DNA of 64,000 nucleotides, taken from IMG/VR virus record IMGVR_UViG_2537561979_000003. One strand, written 5' to 3'. The translations under genes were made by a program, and so were the position numbers. The notes under the pieces were generated by a model. That model saw only the letters and a program-made list of their open reading frames with translations, made no database searches and had not been told where the DNA came from. This stretch comes from a virus (taxonomy: Duplodnaviria > Heunggongvirae > Uroviricota > Caudoviricetes). Positions 5,872-38,371 of this stretch are shown piece after piece; position 1 is the first letter of the stretch; each line of letters starts with the position of its first letter.

Positions 5872-7218
5872 CATCCTCCACGCCCCGAAGGGCGTGGATT
5901 CCTGCTACGTTCAGGCTGTCGCCTGAATCATTTCGGTGGGTTCCTGCTTCAACGGGCGGCCTGACTGCACCATCCCTCCACAGGCAAGTACGGCGTGCCC
6001 CGCCGCTAAAATGTTACGAGCGCCGTTTACATCGGCGTTCGCTGTATATCCACATACCTGGCATCTGAATTTACTTTGTGACAGGCGATTTTCTTTCGCT
6101 GTATGACCACAGCACGCGCAACGCTGGCTTGTGTACGCTGGCGGAACAGCAAGCACCTGACCGCCACGCCAGAGCTGCTTGTACTCAAGCTGGCGGCGCA
6201 TTTCATACCAGCCCTGATCCAGTATCGAACGGTTTAAACCTGATTTTGCCCGGACATTGCGACCCGGATGACTTATCGTTCCCGCCGCTGACTTTGACAT
6301 GTATTTAACCTTCAAATCCTCAATGACAATCATTGCGTGGTTTTTGCTGACGGTCGTTGTGACTTTGTGAAGGTAGTCCCTGCGGATATTTGCGATACGG
6401 GAATGCAGTCGCTGTATTTTGCGTTTCTGCTTCTGCCAGTTGTTGCTGAATTTGACCTTGCGGCTTAACTGTCGCTGAAGTCTCGCCAGCTTCTTCTGGT
6501 TTTTCTGAAAACTATTTACAGGTTCAAAGACTGTGCCATCTGACAGCGTGGCGAGTTTAGCCACGCCAGCATCCAGTCCGACCATTGATGCTGAAGGGTG
6601 AACAGGAGTGGATACCTCTCTTTCTGTCTGAATACTGATGTACCACTTACCGCAGGACTGGCTGACAGTAACATTTTTCACAATACCCGTGACCTGACGG
6701 CTATTCCGGTAGCGCATCCAGCCAAGTTTCGGCAGAAAAATACGGCTGTTTTCCTGATCGAGCTTAACACCCTGCGGGTAGCGGAATGCATCATTCTGTC
6801 CCCGCTTTTTGAATCGGGGAAAAGCTGCCCGATTCTGGAAGAAGTTTTTGTAAGCCCGCTCAAGGTCTTTCAGTGACTGTTGCAATGGCTGTGAGGGAGA
6901 ATCTTTAAGCCATTCGGTTTCAGTGTCTTTTTTCCACTCAACCAACCAGGAAGCCATTTTCGTGTAAGGGATGTATTTTTTACCGGCCTCATGATTCTCA
7001 TTCTGAAGCGCCAGAGCACGGTTGAAAACGAAACGACAAGCTCCGGCAAAGCGCCTCATTTGACGCTCCTGTTGACCATCTGGTTTTAACCGGAATTTGA
7101 ATGACACCTGTTGTTTCATGTCACTATTTTAAGCAAAAATAGCCGGGAGGAAAACTGTGCCTTATATCCCCACTATGAGGAGCGTAGGGGGCGGCACATT
7201 GGATAAGGCGTAACAGGG
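5872..7218 (-). mobile_element. IS200/IS605-family tnpB-only insertion element (boundaries approximate)
   Basis: Fills the exact gap between the ddrA-like stop (5871) and ddrB-like start (7219); GC-rich hairpin ccacgccc-cgaa-gggcgtgg at 5878-5897 just 3' of tnpB. Confidence 0.5.
5911..7119 (-). CDS. tnpB: TnpB (OrfB), RuvC-like nuclease with C-terminal zinc ribbon
   Basis: 402 aa; conserved blocks ...[17 protein letters not shown]... (RuvC-I Asp) and ...[37 protein letters not shown]... (zinc ribbon plus RuvC-III). Confidence 0.85.
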
Positions 7219-27384: not shown

Positions 27385-27459
27385 TGATCAAATGATCAAG
27401 TGATCACTATTTGACCTGCCAAGGTATTGAACTGTATGGATTTACAGGTAAATTGATCA
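27385..27459. promoter_or_regulatory. cluster of four TGATCA (Dam GATC) sites next to loxP; candidate methylation-sensitive cre regulatory region
   Basis: TGATCA at 27385, 27393, 27401 and 27454. Confidence 0.5.
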
Positions 27460-35948: not shown

Positions 35949-36020
35949 AAACACCTCGTGTACTCGTTATGTGTACACAATTATAAACTTCACAGGCATA
36001 AAGCACCAGCACTTTGCAGC

Positions 36021-36410
36021 TTAAATCACCGGACAATCATCAAATTCCCCACTTCGGGCATCATTAATGACATGAGTGATCACACCAAACACAGCATTAC
36101 TCCCCGTGCATCCATCGTCATCCACTGGTAACGCCTCTTTCTTCCCGGTGCTTAAATCCTCCAGGTGCTGGCGCGGATACTTTCGGTATCTCTTTATGCG
36201 ATATTCACCCTCCATAGCGCACACAAGCAGCGAACCATCAACTGGAGTAAGCGAAGAATCAACCACCAGCAAAGCACCCTGCAATATTCCCTCACGGTGA
36301 TGGCTATCAGCTGCCCGCATGAAGTAGGTTGCTGATGGATGTCTAATTATCTGCTGATCAAGAGAAATTCGGCTTTCAACATAATCCGCCGCAGGAGAAG
36401 GGAAACCCAT
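36021..36410 (-). CDS. humD: HumD (UmuD' homologue), 129 aa
   Basis: LexA/UmuD-type peptidase S24 domain; SOS box immediately upstream. Confidence 0.8.
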   Translation of the reverse strand: MGFPSPAADYVESRISLDQQIIRHPSATYFMRAADSHHREGILQGALLVVDSSLTPVDGSLLVCAMEGEYRIKRYRKYPRQHLEDLSTGKKEALPVDDDGCTGSNAVFGVITHVINDARSGEFDDCPVI

Positions 36411-36430
36411 AGCGTTTTACCTCAAAAATA

Positions 36431-36446
36431 CTGTTTATCTATACAG
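36431..36446. promoter_or_regulatory. LexA (SOS) box
   Basis: CTGTTTATCTATACAG matches CTGT-N8-ACAG, within TACTGTTTATCTATACAGCA. Confidence 0.7.
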
Positions 36447-36761
36447 CATACATTAAAGAAGCACCTTTGGTGCAAACGCGTTATGTACATCAACCACCGC
36501 TGATGATTTTTGTGCGCTTTGCTACTATTCATCACCGCGGGGTCAGCGTAACCTCGTTGCCAATCAGTTAATAAGGAATTAGCTATGCCTAATCGCATTC
36601 CTCTCGATCCTGTATTGCCCAAAAATTTTGACTGCACTCCTAACGAGAAACGCTCTAAAGCTCAGCTGGACGCCTAGTGGGACCATCCATATGGGGTTAC
36701 ACAACCTGACGGGAAAATTGTAGTTTATTGTCTGAATGGTGGGGCGTGGGACCGTCCATCC

Positions 36762-37169
36762 GTGCTTTGTTTGGCAGATAACTATGATGAAGCCTGTGAA
36801 CTTGCCGAAAGACAGCAGGCAAGCTGGGTAAAAACACGGTCTGAACCGACATTCATGTTTTCAAAAGAACCGCCATTTATACTGGCGAGGATGCCGCAGC
36901 GACCGGATCATCAACAAGAAATTGTTGCTGAATTTTCCTCAAGGGATGAGATGAATCTCTTCTCATTAAAGCAGGAAGAAAGGGATCGCGTCGAAGTGTC
37001 TCCAACTCTCGACCACAACCGGATGAACCTGGCCCAGCTCGCCTGGTACAGCAAAGAATTAGAGATGTCTATTGCCCGGCTTGAAAACGAAAAAGCCGCT
37101 ATCCAAGTCCAGCACGAAGTAGTTCTGAACCGGATTAGAGAAATGCAAAACGATAACAGGGGATTTTGA
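36762..37169 (+). CDS. hypothetical protein with C-terminal coiled coil; start unresolved (no in-frame ATG with SD)
   Basis: Open frame extends upstream to 36678; a 30-codon ORF with good SD (36585-36677) sits in another frame just upstream. Confidence 0.35.
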   Translation: MLCLADNYDEACELAERQQASWVKTRSEPTFMFSKEPPFILARMPQRPDHQQEIVAEFSSRDEMNLFSLKQEERDRVEVSPTLDHNRMNLAQLAWYSKELEMSIARLENEKAAIQVQHEVVLNRIREMQNDNRGF

Positions 37170-37526
37170 ATGGCTAAAATCGAGTACCATCGCGATCGCG
37201 GTAATTACCTGGAAATATACGATCATGAATCTCTTAACGATATCAACGATGCGTTATATGAATACTGTGAAAAAACGAGCATCACAGATGCACCTGATGC
37301 ATTTGTCGAGCTGCCGGTATATCTCCGCGACATCTATGCAATACGAACACCGCCCGTATCGGTGATTCACATTGGCTATGTCCGCCTGTCCATCGAAGAA
37401 GATGAAGATCGTTATATCGTGCGCCACTATACATTGGACAGAAAAGAACTTCCTAATGAATGGAACATGAGTAATTTCTACAACGGTGAATATGGCTTAA
37501 AATCCGCTAATAATTTACGGTCATAA
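37170..37526 (+). CDS. hypothetical protein, translationally coupled to the upstream ORF
   Basis: TGAATG stop-start junction; 118 aa; no recognisable motif. Confidence 0.4.
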   Translation: MAKIEYHRDRGNYLEIYDHESLNDINDALYEYCEKTSITDAPDAFVELPVYLRDIYAIRTPPVSVIHIGYVRLSIEEDEDRYIVRHYTLDRKELPNEWNMSNFYNGEYGLKSANNLRS

Positions 37527-38371
37527 TCTATACAGGCATGTATAACAACAACGAGTCTATTAGCTGTCAACAACGTTATTTCCTCAAATAAGAAAAAGCA
37601 GAAAACAAATTATTTAAGGTCACAAATTGTGGCCTTGATGGAGGAGGGAGGCTTATTGGCTATGGCTAAAAATCAAATTAGACACTTCATGTTGCTGTAG
37701 CTCATCAAGATCCGAGGCCACAAAACCTTTTCCGAAAAACTTCACAAGTAACTCACTAGCCGCATCATTGTCACCTATTACACGAAAGTCATACGGCAAC
37801 GTCGCAAGTTGACGATGTAATCCTGCTGAGAAAGTCGAATCTAACAGCGCCCAGAATTCCCACCGCAGGATAATACTCGCCTCTTAATACTGTATATATG
37901 TTGTTACGATATGTTTTTCTGTCTCTAAAAAAAGATGTTTGAAGGGGATAAAAATATACAATTCCAACAAACGTTATTTTTAACAATTTTTTTCTTTGCG
38001 TTGACTTTCCCGGACACCTTGTCTGACCGAAGGTGCGCGAAAGCCACTTTTTCCTTCCTGAGTTATCCACAAAGTTATGCACTTGCAAGAGGGCCATTTT
38101 CTACATATTGTGGTGGCTAACAGATGAAATGAATGTAGATTAATTGAAGATAAGGAGAAAATTTGAGATGCAATCATGACGTTAATAGATAGGGTCTGCA
38201 TTACAGACCCCACCCGCATCAAGGAATTAGCCGTTCCCTGATGTTTTTCCGAAAACATGTGCCGTAAGCTCACGTTAACGACTTTCATTCACCGAATCCA
38301 ACTATATAGGGGTTGGGTTTCTACGTCAACGTGAGCAAGTGCACCTTTACATTTGACAAGGAACCACCTGA

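What the first reader, a model, noticed from the sequence alone, without database searches (positions are those of the whole stretch)
36411..37526. SOS box between humD and a divergent, translationally coupled two-gene cassette with an ambiguous start
The LexA box at 36431-36446 lies in the divergent region between humD (minus) and two plus-strand ORFs of 135 and 118 codons joined by TGAATG. The first ORF has no in-frame ATG with an SD; a 30-codon ORF with good SD (36585-36677) sits just upstream in another frame, suggesting a frameshifted gene or programmed recoding. Neither protein resembles a theta-subunit homologue expected near humD in P1. This may be an SOS-induced accessory module, possibly toxin-antitoxin or anti-defence.
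Basis: partly seen in the sequence, partly recalled or inferred. Interest (0 to 1): 0.5.

Follow-up and report, generated by a model that had tools for sequence, protein, structure and literature searches.

The report
Amber-disrupted lxr gene beside humD
The "ambiguous start" is the known phage P1/P7 gene lxr cut by a single in-frame stop codon (Trp31 TGG to TAG) that one sub-lineage of P1-like phage-plasmids inherited, followed by the known P7 gene upf93.6; this is ordinary gene decay, not recoding and not a toxin-antitoxin pair.

Summary
The window is a P7-like member of the P1 phage-plasmid family. The SOS box (CTGT-N8-ACAG, 36431-36446) lies between humD and two plus-strand ORFs joined by TGAATG, as reported. 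However, the 30-codon ORF (36585-36677) and the 135-codon ORF (36762-37169) are in the same frame, separated only by TAG at 36675-36677. Together they form lxr (P1 gp102, P7 Upf94.2, 194 codons), which starts conventionally at the small ORF's ATG with its Shine-Dalgarno (SD) sequence. P1 and P7 have TGG (Trp31) at that codon, a nearly invariant residue of a conserved N-terminal domain.

The TAG allele is real and inherited. It occurs in 30 PLSDB plasmids against 154 with TGG, and in 24 complete E. coli genomes against 185. Of the 30 plasmids, 23 carry a second stop (Trp55 TGA) plus two missense changes, while upf93.6 is unchanged in the three TAG-lineage copies compared with the window (one single-stop, two double-stop). 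Other P1-like elements carry independent frameshifts and deletions in lxr. No suppressor tRNA, stimulatory RNA structure or Rfam element was found.

So lxr is a recent pseudogene here, and the 135-codon ORF that RefSeq annotates on a sister plasmid is an artefact. The second gene is P7 upf93.6, which sits where P1 has hot. Each gene occurs without the other elsewhere, which argues against a toxin-antitoxin pair. The function of both proteins remains unknown.

The parts
36021..36410 (-). humD (UmuD'-like S24 peptidase, 129 aa), upstream of phd-doc
   Evidence: ORF list. Annotated as humD in P7 and P1 at the homologous position. Annotated as an S24 family peptidase in the sister plasmid.
36429..36448 (.). 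LexA (SOS) box TACTGTTTATCTATACAGCA; core CTGT-N8-ACAG at 36431-36446. It lies 19-20 nt from the humD ATG and about 137 nt upstream of the lxr ATG.
   Evidence: Sequence. Pattern count 4 against 0.63 expected. Annotated as a LexA binding site in the P1 and P7 records. Conserved in P1-like loci L001-L003, L028 and L029.
36573..36578 (+). Shine-Dalgarno AAGGAA of lxr, 6 nt before the ATG at 36585
   Evidence: Sequence. Identical in P1 and P7.
36585..37169 (+). lxr / upf94.2 reading frame (194 codons plus TGA), here a pseudogene with one internal amber codon
   Evidence: Translation. 98.6% DNA identity to P7 over 36411-37600, which spans upf94.2 and upf93.6. The P7 protein matches phrog_6164 full length, E 3.5e-135. 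P1 lxr occupies the same place.
36675..36677 (+). Amber codon TAG replacing Trp31 (TGG in P1 and P7); G to A at 36676
   Evidence: Alignment A1. Trp31 is nearly invariant in 75 homologues. The allele is found in 30 PLSDB plasmids against 154 with TGG, and in 24 against 185 complete E. coli genomes.
36585..36677 (+). Remnant 30-codon ORF, the N-terminus of Lxr up to the amber codon
36762..37169 (+). 135-codon GTG ORF, the 3' two-thirds of lxr in its own frame. It has no SD. On the sister plasmid RefSeq calls the equivalent ORF a 'hypothetical protein'. It is an annotation artefact.
   Evidence: It would start at residue 60, after the invariant CLNGG..DR core at residues 49-57.
37158..37163 (+). 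SD-like AGGGGA, 6 nt before the upf93.6 ATG
   Evidence: Sequence.
37170..37526 (+). upf93.6 (118 aa), intact. Its start abuts the lxr stop (TGA|ATG).
   Evidence: ORF list. P7 annotation. phrog_5797 full length, E 3.8e-77. No nucleotide differences within the gene in three TAG-lineage copies compared with the window.

Best explanation
This is the humD-lxr divergent region of a P7-type P1-family phage-plasmid. A conserved LexA box sits next to the humD start. By the standing P1 annotation it also lies in the regulatory region of the divergent lxr gene.

In this element lxr has a G-to-A nonsense mutation (Trp31 TGG to TAG), inherited by a sub-lineage of P1-like plasmids in E. coli, Salmonella and Shigella. 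Ribosomes start at the normal ATG (36585) and stop after 30 codons. The rest of the frame has no usable ribosome-binding site. Any restart product would lack the invariant core of the N-terminal domain. So lxr is a young pseudogene in this lineage. The 135-codon ORF is what is left of it.

The downstream gene is P7 upf93.6. It is an independent small accessory gene with its own SD. It is intact, but its expression may be lowered by polarity from the upstream stop.

Shown: gene identities, the nonsense allele and its distribution, further decay in the sub-lineage, and the absence of recoding signals.
Inferred: LexA control of lxr-upf93.6, loss of Lxr function, and polarity on upf93.6.
The biochemical roles of Lxr and Upf93.6 are unknown.
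For: - Same frame, single TAG.
- TGG in P1 and P7 at the same codon, with an otherwise co-linear 98.6% identical sequence.
- P7 annotates the 194-aa Upf94.2 and the 118-aa Upf93.6 at these positions. P1 annotates lxr.
- Trp31 is nearly invariant. C49-L-N-G-G53, D56 and R57 are invariant in 75 homologues from Enterobacteria to Bradyrhizobium.
- The AlphaFold model (pLDDT 87.8) places residues ~25-130 in one alpha/beta domain, so a restart at residue 60 or later cannot rebuild it.
- Allele counts: 30 TAG against 154 TGG plasmids, and 24 against 185 E. coli genomes. This excludes a sequencing error.
- 23 of the 30 TAG plasmids carry a second stop, Trp55 TGA. In the two read in full (L012, L014), all three further changes inside lxr alter the protein (Trp55 stop, V38I, E131K) and none falls in upf93.6.
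- One called product with E131K, starting at the same internal residue 60 as the truncated ORF, also has a 7-residue deletion.
- There are independent frameshift, deletion and stop-loss alleles of lxr in other P1-like elements.
- PHROGs holds split half-gene families.
- lxr scored non-essential in a P1 CRISPRi screen (PMC10695390).
- No tRNA with a CUA anticodon in the window.
- The RNA after the stop folds no better than shuffles, z = +1.57. No Rfam match.
- TAG terminates other long ORFs in the window.
Against: - No expression data. A low level of readthrough, or a restart at M123 (AAGGGA 4-5 nt upstream), could still give a C-terminal coiled-coil fragment.
- The rest of the frame is still open in the window-type allele, so the loss is recent and residual function cannot be formally excluded.
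- No convincing sigma-70 promoter for lxr was found in the 174-bp spacer, so LexA control of lxr rests on annotation and position only.
- The allele's frequency of 11-16% could reflect selection for loss rather than neutral decay. The counts are also inflated by clonal sampling.
Confidence: 0.9

Rival explanations
1. Programmed recoding: the TAG is read through, or bypassed by frameshifting, to make full-length Lxr in a regulated way.
For: The frame stays open for 163 codons after the stop in the window and six identical plasmids. The allele persists in many isolates.
Against: - Both parts are in the same frame, so no frameshift is needed.
- 154 of 184 plasmids, and P1 and P7, have TGG.
- 23 of 30 TAG plasmids have a second stop, TGA, 24 codons later.
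- No stable RNA structure downstream, no Rfam element, no suppressor tRNA.
- The stop context is TAG-T, which I recall as an efficient termination context in E. coli.
Confidence: 0.02
2. lxr and upf93.6 form an SOS-induced two-gene toxin-antitoxin (or similar obligate pair) module.
For: They are two small adjacent genes with abutting stop and start codons. They sit next to phd-doc in an accessory region. The pair recurs at 66% and 57% identity on a Rep3-type plasmid (L027).
Against: - P1 and the abundant 80%-identity lineage have lxr with hot and no upf93.6.
- All short Lxr-N homologues lack upf93.6.
- upf93.6 homologues sit behind unrelated genes (L024, L031, L033).
- The TAG lineage keeps upf93.6 with lxr destroyed, so neither gene can be a toxin that needs the other.
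- No Pfam, NCBIfam or PADLOC match to toxin, antitoxin or defence families.
Confidence: 0.03
3. Loss of Lxr is adaptive. The stop was selected because Lxr is costly under SOS induction or is sensed by a host defence, and this helped the sub-lineage spread.
For: The TAG lineage is found in three genera and makes up 11-16% of sequenced P1-like plasmids. lxr is wrecked repeatedly and independently.
Against: Recurrent wrecks are equally expected for a dispensable gene. The counts are biased by clonal sampling; for example, many of the Salmonella plasmids have consecutive accession numbers, which suggests one or a few studies. No test for positive selection is possible with these tools.
Confidence: 0.08
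4. The stop is an assembly or sequencing error in this window.
For: It is a single-base difference from P7 and P1.
Against: The same base is present in 30 independent PLSDB plasmids and 24 complete E. coli genomes.
Confidence: 0.01

Closest known systems
Phage P7 upf94.2-upf93.6 (AF503408) next to humD
   Same: Same gene order, same LexA box position and same TGA|ATG junction. 98.6% DNA identity over 36411-37600.
   Different: P7 has TGG at codon 31 (intact 194-aa protein). P7 carries IS903 about 260 bp downstream of upf93.6. The window has TAG and an empty IS site.
Phage P1 lxr (gp102, 'LexA regulated function') with hot
   Same: The humD-LexA box-lxr arrangement is the same, and the first ~178 codons of lxr are ~95% identical at the DNA level.
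   Different: P1 lxr is intact, 190 aa, with a different C-terminal end. It is followed by the convergent hot (theta homologue). From about window 37120 to 38033 the window follows P7, not P1.
Short Lxr-N proteins (130-143 aa, labelled 'DNA-binding protein' or hypothetical) on plasmids and phage-plasmids of Klebsiella, Salmonella, Pseudomonas, Xanthomonas, Burkholderia and Bradyrhizobium
   Same: They share the N-terminal ~125-residue domain at 50-69% identity, including WWDHP, CLNGGAWDR and QRPD.
   Different: They lack the C-terminal coiled coil. No LexA box or humD is adjacent. Their neighbours vary: a resolvase with overlapping stop/start, repABC/trb, gp32-RecA/HEPN.
E. coli umuDC-type SOS-regulated loci
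   Same: A consensus-like LexA box lies immediately upstream of a UmuD'-like gene.
   Different: There is no umuC partner here. The box lies in a divergent spacer shared with an unrelated gene. Binding and induction were not tested.

Membership tests
P1 Lxr / P7 Upf94.2 (phrog_6164) | Full-length sequence similarity | tested here: met
   The window frame 36585-37169 differs from P7 upf94.2 by 3 nucleotides. The P7 protein matches phrog_6164 at positions 1-194 of 194, E 3.5e-135.
P1 Lxr / P7 Upf94.2 (phrog_6164) | Position: divergent from humD across a spacer carrying the LexA box | tested here: met
P1 Lxr / P7 Upf94.2 (phrog_6164) | Intact open reading frame from the conventional ATG | tested here: not met
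   TAG at codon 31. It is therefore a pseudogene copy of the family, not a functional member.
P7 Upf93.6 (phrog_5797) | Full-length sequence similarity and an intact frame | tested here: met
   phrog_5797 positions 1-118 of 118, E 3.8e-77. Annotated as upf93.6 in P7.
LexA-regulated (SOS) gene | LexA box close to consensus in the regulatory region | tested here: met
   CTGT-N8-ACAG, with 17 of 20 matches to the consensus as I recall it. Conserved.
LexA-regulated (SOS) gene | LexA binding and DNA-damage induction of the lxr-upf93.6 transcript | not testable with these tools
   No promoter overlapping the box could be assigned to the plus strand with confidence. The only candidate is a weak TTTACC-18-TATACA found by eye.
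Programmed stop-codon readthrough or frameshift | The recoding site is conserved among relatives | tested here: not met
   TGG in P1, P7 and 154 of 184 plasmids. A second stop is present in 23 of 30 TAG plasmids.
Programmed stop-codon readthrough or frameshift | Stimulatory RNA structure, or a dedicated or suppressor tRNA | tested here: not met
   Fold z = +1.57. No Rfam hit. The window's tRNAs are Met, Thr and Asn only.
Type II toxin-antitoxin pair | Obligate co-occurrence of the two genes | tested here: not met
   lxr without upf93.6. upf93.6 homologues without lxr.
Type II toxin-antitoxin pair | Similarity to a known toxin or antitoxin family | tested here: not met
Hot (DNA polymerase III theta homologue) | Match to PF06440 DNA_pol3_theta, or a P1 hot sequence, next to lxr | tested here: not met
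   Neither protein hits PF06440. The P1 hot segment is replaced by the P7-type segment.

The most novel reading that the evidence does not exclude
Lxr's N-terminal domain defines a widespread protein family of mobile elements with no Pfam match. It is found on plasmids and phage-plasmids of alpha-, beta- and gamma-proteobacteria, sometimes translationally coupled to a resolvase, and its function is unknown. Its repeated inactivation in P1-like phage-plasmids, including this lineage found in three genera, may be selected rather than neutral. For example, Lxr could be an SOS-induced cost or a trigger sensed by host defence.
Probability: 0.1. Interest if true: 0.5.

Novelty: already known. Interest (0 to 1): 0.15.

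Why it matters
The main value is practical. On sister plasmids RefSeq calls the equivalent 135-codon ORF a 'hypothetical protein' (WP_001354543.1 and WP_223656859.1). It is the tail of a nonsense-disrupted lxr and should be flagged as a pseudogene.

The Trp31-amber marker, and the Trp31-amber plus Trp55-opal pair, are handy for tracking a sub-lineage of P1-like phage-plasmids in E. coli, Salmonella and Shigella.

The frequent natural knock-outs agree with the CRISPRi result that lxr is dispensable. They also provide natural null alleles for anyone who wants to find out what this conserved but uncharacterised SOS-linked gene does.

Tried and rejected
- Pfam, NCBIfam and PADLOC scans of both proteins gave nothing above threshold. 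PHROGs gave only 'unknown function' families.
- Profile searches of PDB sequences gave nothing below E 0.03.
- An exhaustive HMMER search with the Upf93.6 profile found about 25 more small homologues, plus weak multi-stretch hits in BspA-type LRR giants. I treat the latter as repeat-like resemblance, not homology.
- I looked for LexA boxes upstream of distant lxr and Lxr-N homologues and found none.
- Consensus sigma-70 promoter scans of the humD-lxr spacer found nothing on either strand.
- Literature searches found no functional study of lxr, upf94.2 or upf93.6. The P1 genome paper and the HumD paper are not held in the library.
- A clamp-binding-like reading of QLDAWW (residues 27-32) was considered and dropped, because the motif lies inside the folded domain in the model.

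Full report
**What the region is**

The window around the finding carries, on the minus strand, pdcB, pdcA/fdc, doc, phd and humD. On the plus strand it carries two ORFs.

Megablast of 36411-37600 finds phage P7 at 98.6% identity over the full length. Phage P1 matches over only the first 60%. It also finds 235 PLSDB plasmids, almost all from E. coli, Salmonella and Shigella.

The P7 record annotates this arrangement exactly: humD, a LexA binding site, upf94.2 (585 nt) and upf93.6 (357 nt). The P1 record annotates humD, a 'LexA binding site in the regulatory region of lxr and humD', lxr (573 nt), and then the convergent hot gene. So the window is a P7-type member of the P1 phage-plasmid family, and the two ORFs are known, named genes of unknown function.

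**Checking the observation**

The SOS box is real. CTGTTTATCTATACAG lies at 36431-36446, inside the 20-mer TACTGTTTATCTATACAGCA. By my recollection of the E. coli consensus TACTGTATATATATACAGTA, it matches 17 of 20 positions.

The core pattern occurs 4 times in the window against 0.63 expected. This copy is conserved in P1, P7, the nearest plasmid, and a lineage whose Lxr is only 80% identical.

The TGA|ATG junction (37167-37172) and the SD-like AGGGGA before the second gene are also as described.

36585 and 36762 are in the same frame. Translating 36585-37169 gives a single 194-codon frame interrupted once, by TAG at 36675-36677. The '30-codon ORF with a good SD' is the true 5' end of lxr. 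The '135-codon ORF without a start' is its 3' part.

**The lesion**

Alignment with P7 and P1 shows TGG (Trp31) where the window has TAG, a G-to-A transition at 36676, with everything around it co-linear.

The nearest plasmid, pEC21Z048-103K, has the same TAG. RefSeq annotates only the 135-codon GTG ORF there.

To count alleles I used 55-nt megablast queries with the variable base at the centre. Every 28-nt seed must then contain that base.
- PLSDB: 30 records with TAG (17 E. coli, 11 Salmonella, 2 Shigella) against 154 with TGG.
- Complete E. coli genomes: 24 with TAG against 185 with TGG.

The stop is therefore a real, inherited allele of a minority lineage. It is not a sequencing error.

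**Pseudogene or recoding?**

Several results point to a pseudogene.
- *The lost residue matters.* Trp31 is nearly invariant among 75 homologues. The block C49-L-N-G-G53, D56, R57 is invariant. The AlphaFold model (mean pLDDT 87.8) puts residues ~25-130 into one alpha/beta domain, followed by a long C-terminal helix at 149-192.
- *A restart cannot rescue the protein.* The in-frame start codons after the stop are GTG60, TTG63, M91, M103, M123 and later. All lie after the invariant core or lack an SD, so none could restore the domain.
- *Decay continues in the sub-lineage.* 23 of the 30 TAG plasmids share a second stop, Trp55 TGG to TGA. In the two I read in full (Salmonella pZ1322HSL0026-3 and a Shigella plasmid), all three further changes inside lxr alter the protein: the Trp55 stop, V38I and E131K. 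None falls in upf93.6. A called product that carries E131K, and starts at the same internal residue 60 as the truncated ORF, has in addition a 7-residue deletion (P0036).
- *Nothing suggests readthrough.* The 111 nt around and after the stop fold less well than shuffled controls, z = +1.57. There is no Rfam match in 36000-38000. The window's three tRNAs are Met, Thr and Asn. TAG ends other long ORFs in the window.
- *lxr is expendable and often broken elsewhere.* The homologue list contains independent frameshifted, internally deleted and stop-loss-fused versions (P0021, P0028, P0038, P0041, P0058, P0098, P0060). PHROGs even has separate families for the two halves. A P1 genome-wide CRISPRi screen scored lxr non-essential (PMC10695390).

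**The second gene and the cassette idea**

upf93.6 is intact. It matches phrog_5797 over its full length and has its own SD.

The lxr-upf93.6 pair is not a fixed module.
- P1 and the abundant 80%-identity lineage have lxr followed by hot.
- A 58%-identity full-length Lxr sits next to an H-NS-like gene.
- The short Lxr-N proteins have quite different neighbours.
- Upf93.6 homologues follow an unrelated 320-aa protein in a Salmonella plasmid, an Mrr-like nuclease gene, and an unrelated 136-aa ORF.
- The pair recurs only in P7-type elements and on one Rep3-type plasmid (L027).

P1 keeps lxr alone and the TAG lineage keeps upf93.6 alone. So neither gene can be a toxin that depends on the other. 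The toxin-antitoxin reading is rejected.

No defence or anti-defence family was matched. An anti-defence role can be neither supported nor excluded.

**What can be said about function**

The N-terminal domain of Lxr has no Pfam or NCBIfam model. It is nonetheless conserved at 50-69% identity in 130-143-aa proteins on plasmids and phage-plasmids from Klebsiella, Salmonella, Pseudomonas, Xanthomonas, Burkholderia and Bradyrhizobium.

On the Pseudomonas/Xanthomonas-type plasmids its stop overlaps the start of a serine resolvase gene. On a Bradyrhizobium plasmid it lies between repABC and the trb operon.

None of these homologues has a LexA box nearby. The SOS link is therefore specific to the P1 family, where lxr shares a spacer with humD.

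I could not assign a plus-strand promoter in the 174-bp spacer. LexA control of lxr therefore remains an annotation-level inference.

**Verdict**

The recoding, toxin-antitoxin and novel-module interpretations are not supported.

The locus is the known humD / LexA box / lxr (upf94.2) / upf93.6 region of P7-type P1-like phage-plasmids. Here lxr is inactivated by an inherited amber mutation. This is ordinary gene decay of a dispensable accessory gene.

Its use is limited to three things: correcting annotation, serving as a lineage marker, and acting as a natural null allele of a conserved but still uncharacterised gene family.

Noticed in passing
L012:1674-2259 and L014:1674-2259 (window-equivalent 36696, 36749, 36975): Most plasmids of the amber lineage (23 of 30 in PLSDB) carry a second stop in lxr (Trp55 TGG to TGA). 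The two read in full also carry V38I and E131K. Together with the amber change, all four changes are G to A on the coding strand within 300 nt.
   Followed up: yes
L004-L007, 5788-7040: On Pseudomonas/Xanthomonas-type plasmids a 135-aa Lxr-N homologue lies between a 66-67-aa ORF and a serine resolvase gene whose start overlaps its stop. This suggests an operon with the multimer-resolution or recombinase gene.
   Followed up: partly
window 37719-37727 and 37781-37790: An IS insertion hot spot lies just downstream of upf93.6. P7 has IS903 and pEC21Z048-103K has ISVsa5 inserted at these two 9-bp sites. The window has both sites empty.
   Followed up: partly
window ~37120-38033: This is the mosaic boundary with P1. 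From the last ~17 codons of lxr to about 38033 the window follows P7 (different lxr C-terminus, upf93.6) instead of the P1 hot-upfO segment.
   Followed up: partly
window 27432-27447 (also 6531-6546 and 59309-59324): Further CTGT-N8-ACAG matches. The one at 27432 (CTGTATGGATTTACAG) lies in the intergenic stretch after cra, in a query region that phage records annotate with cra, loxP and imcA. It might be another LexA site.
   Followed up: no
L003:2852-3259, L012:1852-2259, L014:1852-2259: RefSeq annotates the 135-codon remnant as 'hypothetical protein' (WP_001354543.1, WP_223656859.1) rather than flagging lxr as a pseudogene.
   Followed up: yes
protein P0060 (58 member sequences): A variant in which the lxr stop TGA has become TGG, fusing the Lxr C-terminal part in frame to Upf93.6 (…NDNRGFWMAKIEY…).
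   Followed up: no
window 36461-36473: A conserved hairpin, GCACC-TTT-GGTGC, lies in the humD-lxr spacer. On the minus strand it is followed by a T-rich run (terminator-like) just upstream of the LexA box and humD. This sits oddly with the P1 annotation, which places the humD promoter inside lxr.
   Followed up: no
L029:68-745: A P1-like metagenome contig carries a Tad2-like (PF11195) gene and a dUTPase gene beside pdcA-doc-phd-humD, where P1 and P7 have pdcB.
   Followed up: no
proteins P0148, P0152-P0154, P0158 and others: The Upf93.6 profile (positions ~16-70) gives weak multi-stretch matches to very large proteins. Two of the three that were scanned (P0154, P0158) are BspA-type leucine-rich-repeat proteins. 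This is probably repeat-like resemblance, but it is unexplained.
   Followed up: partly
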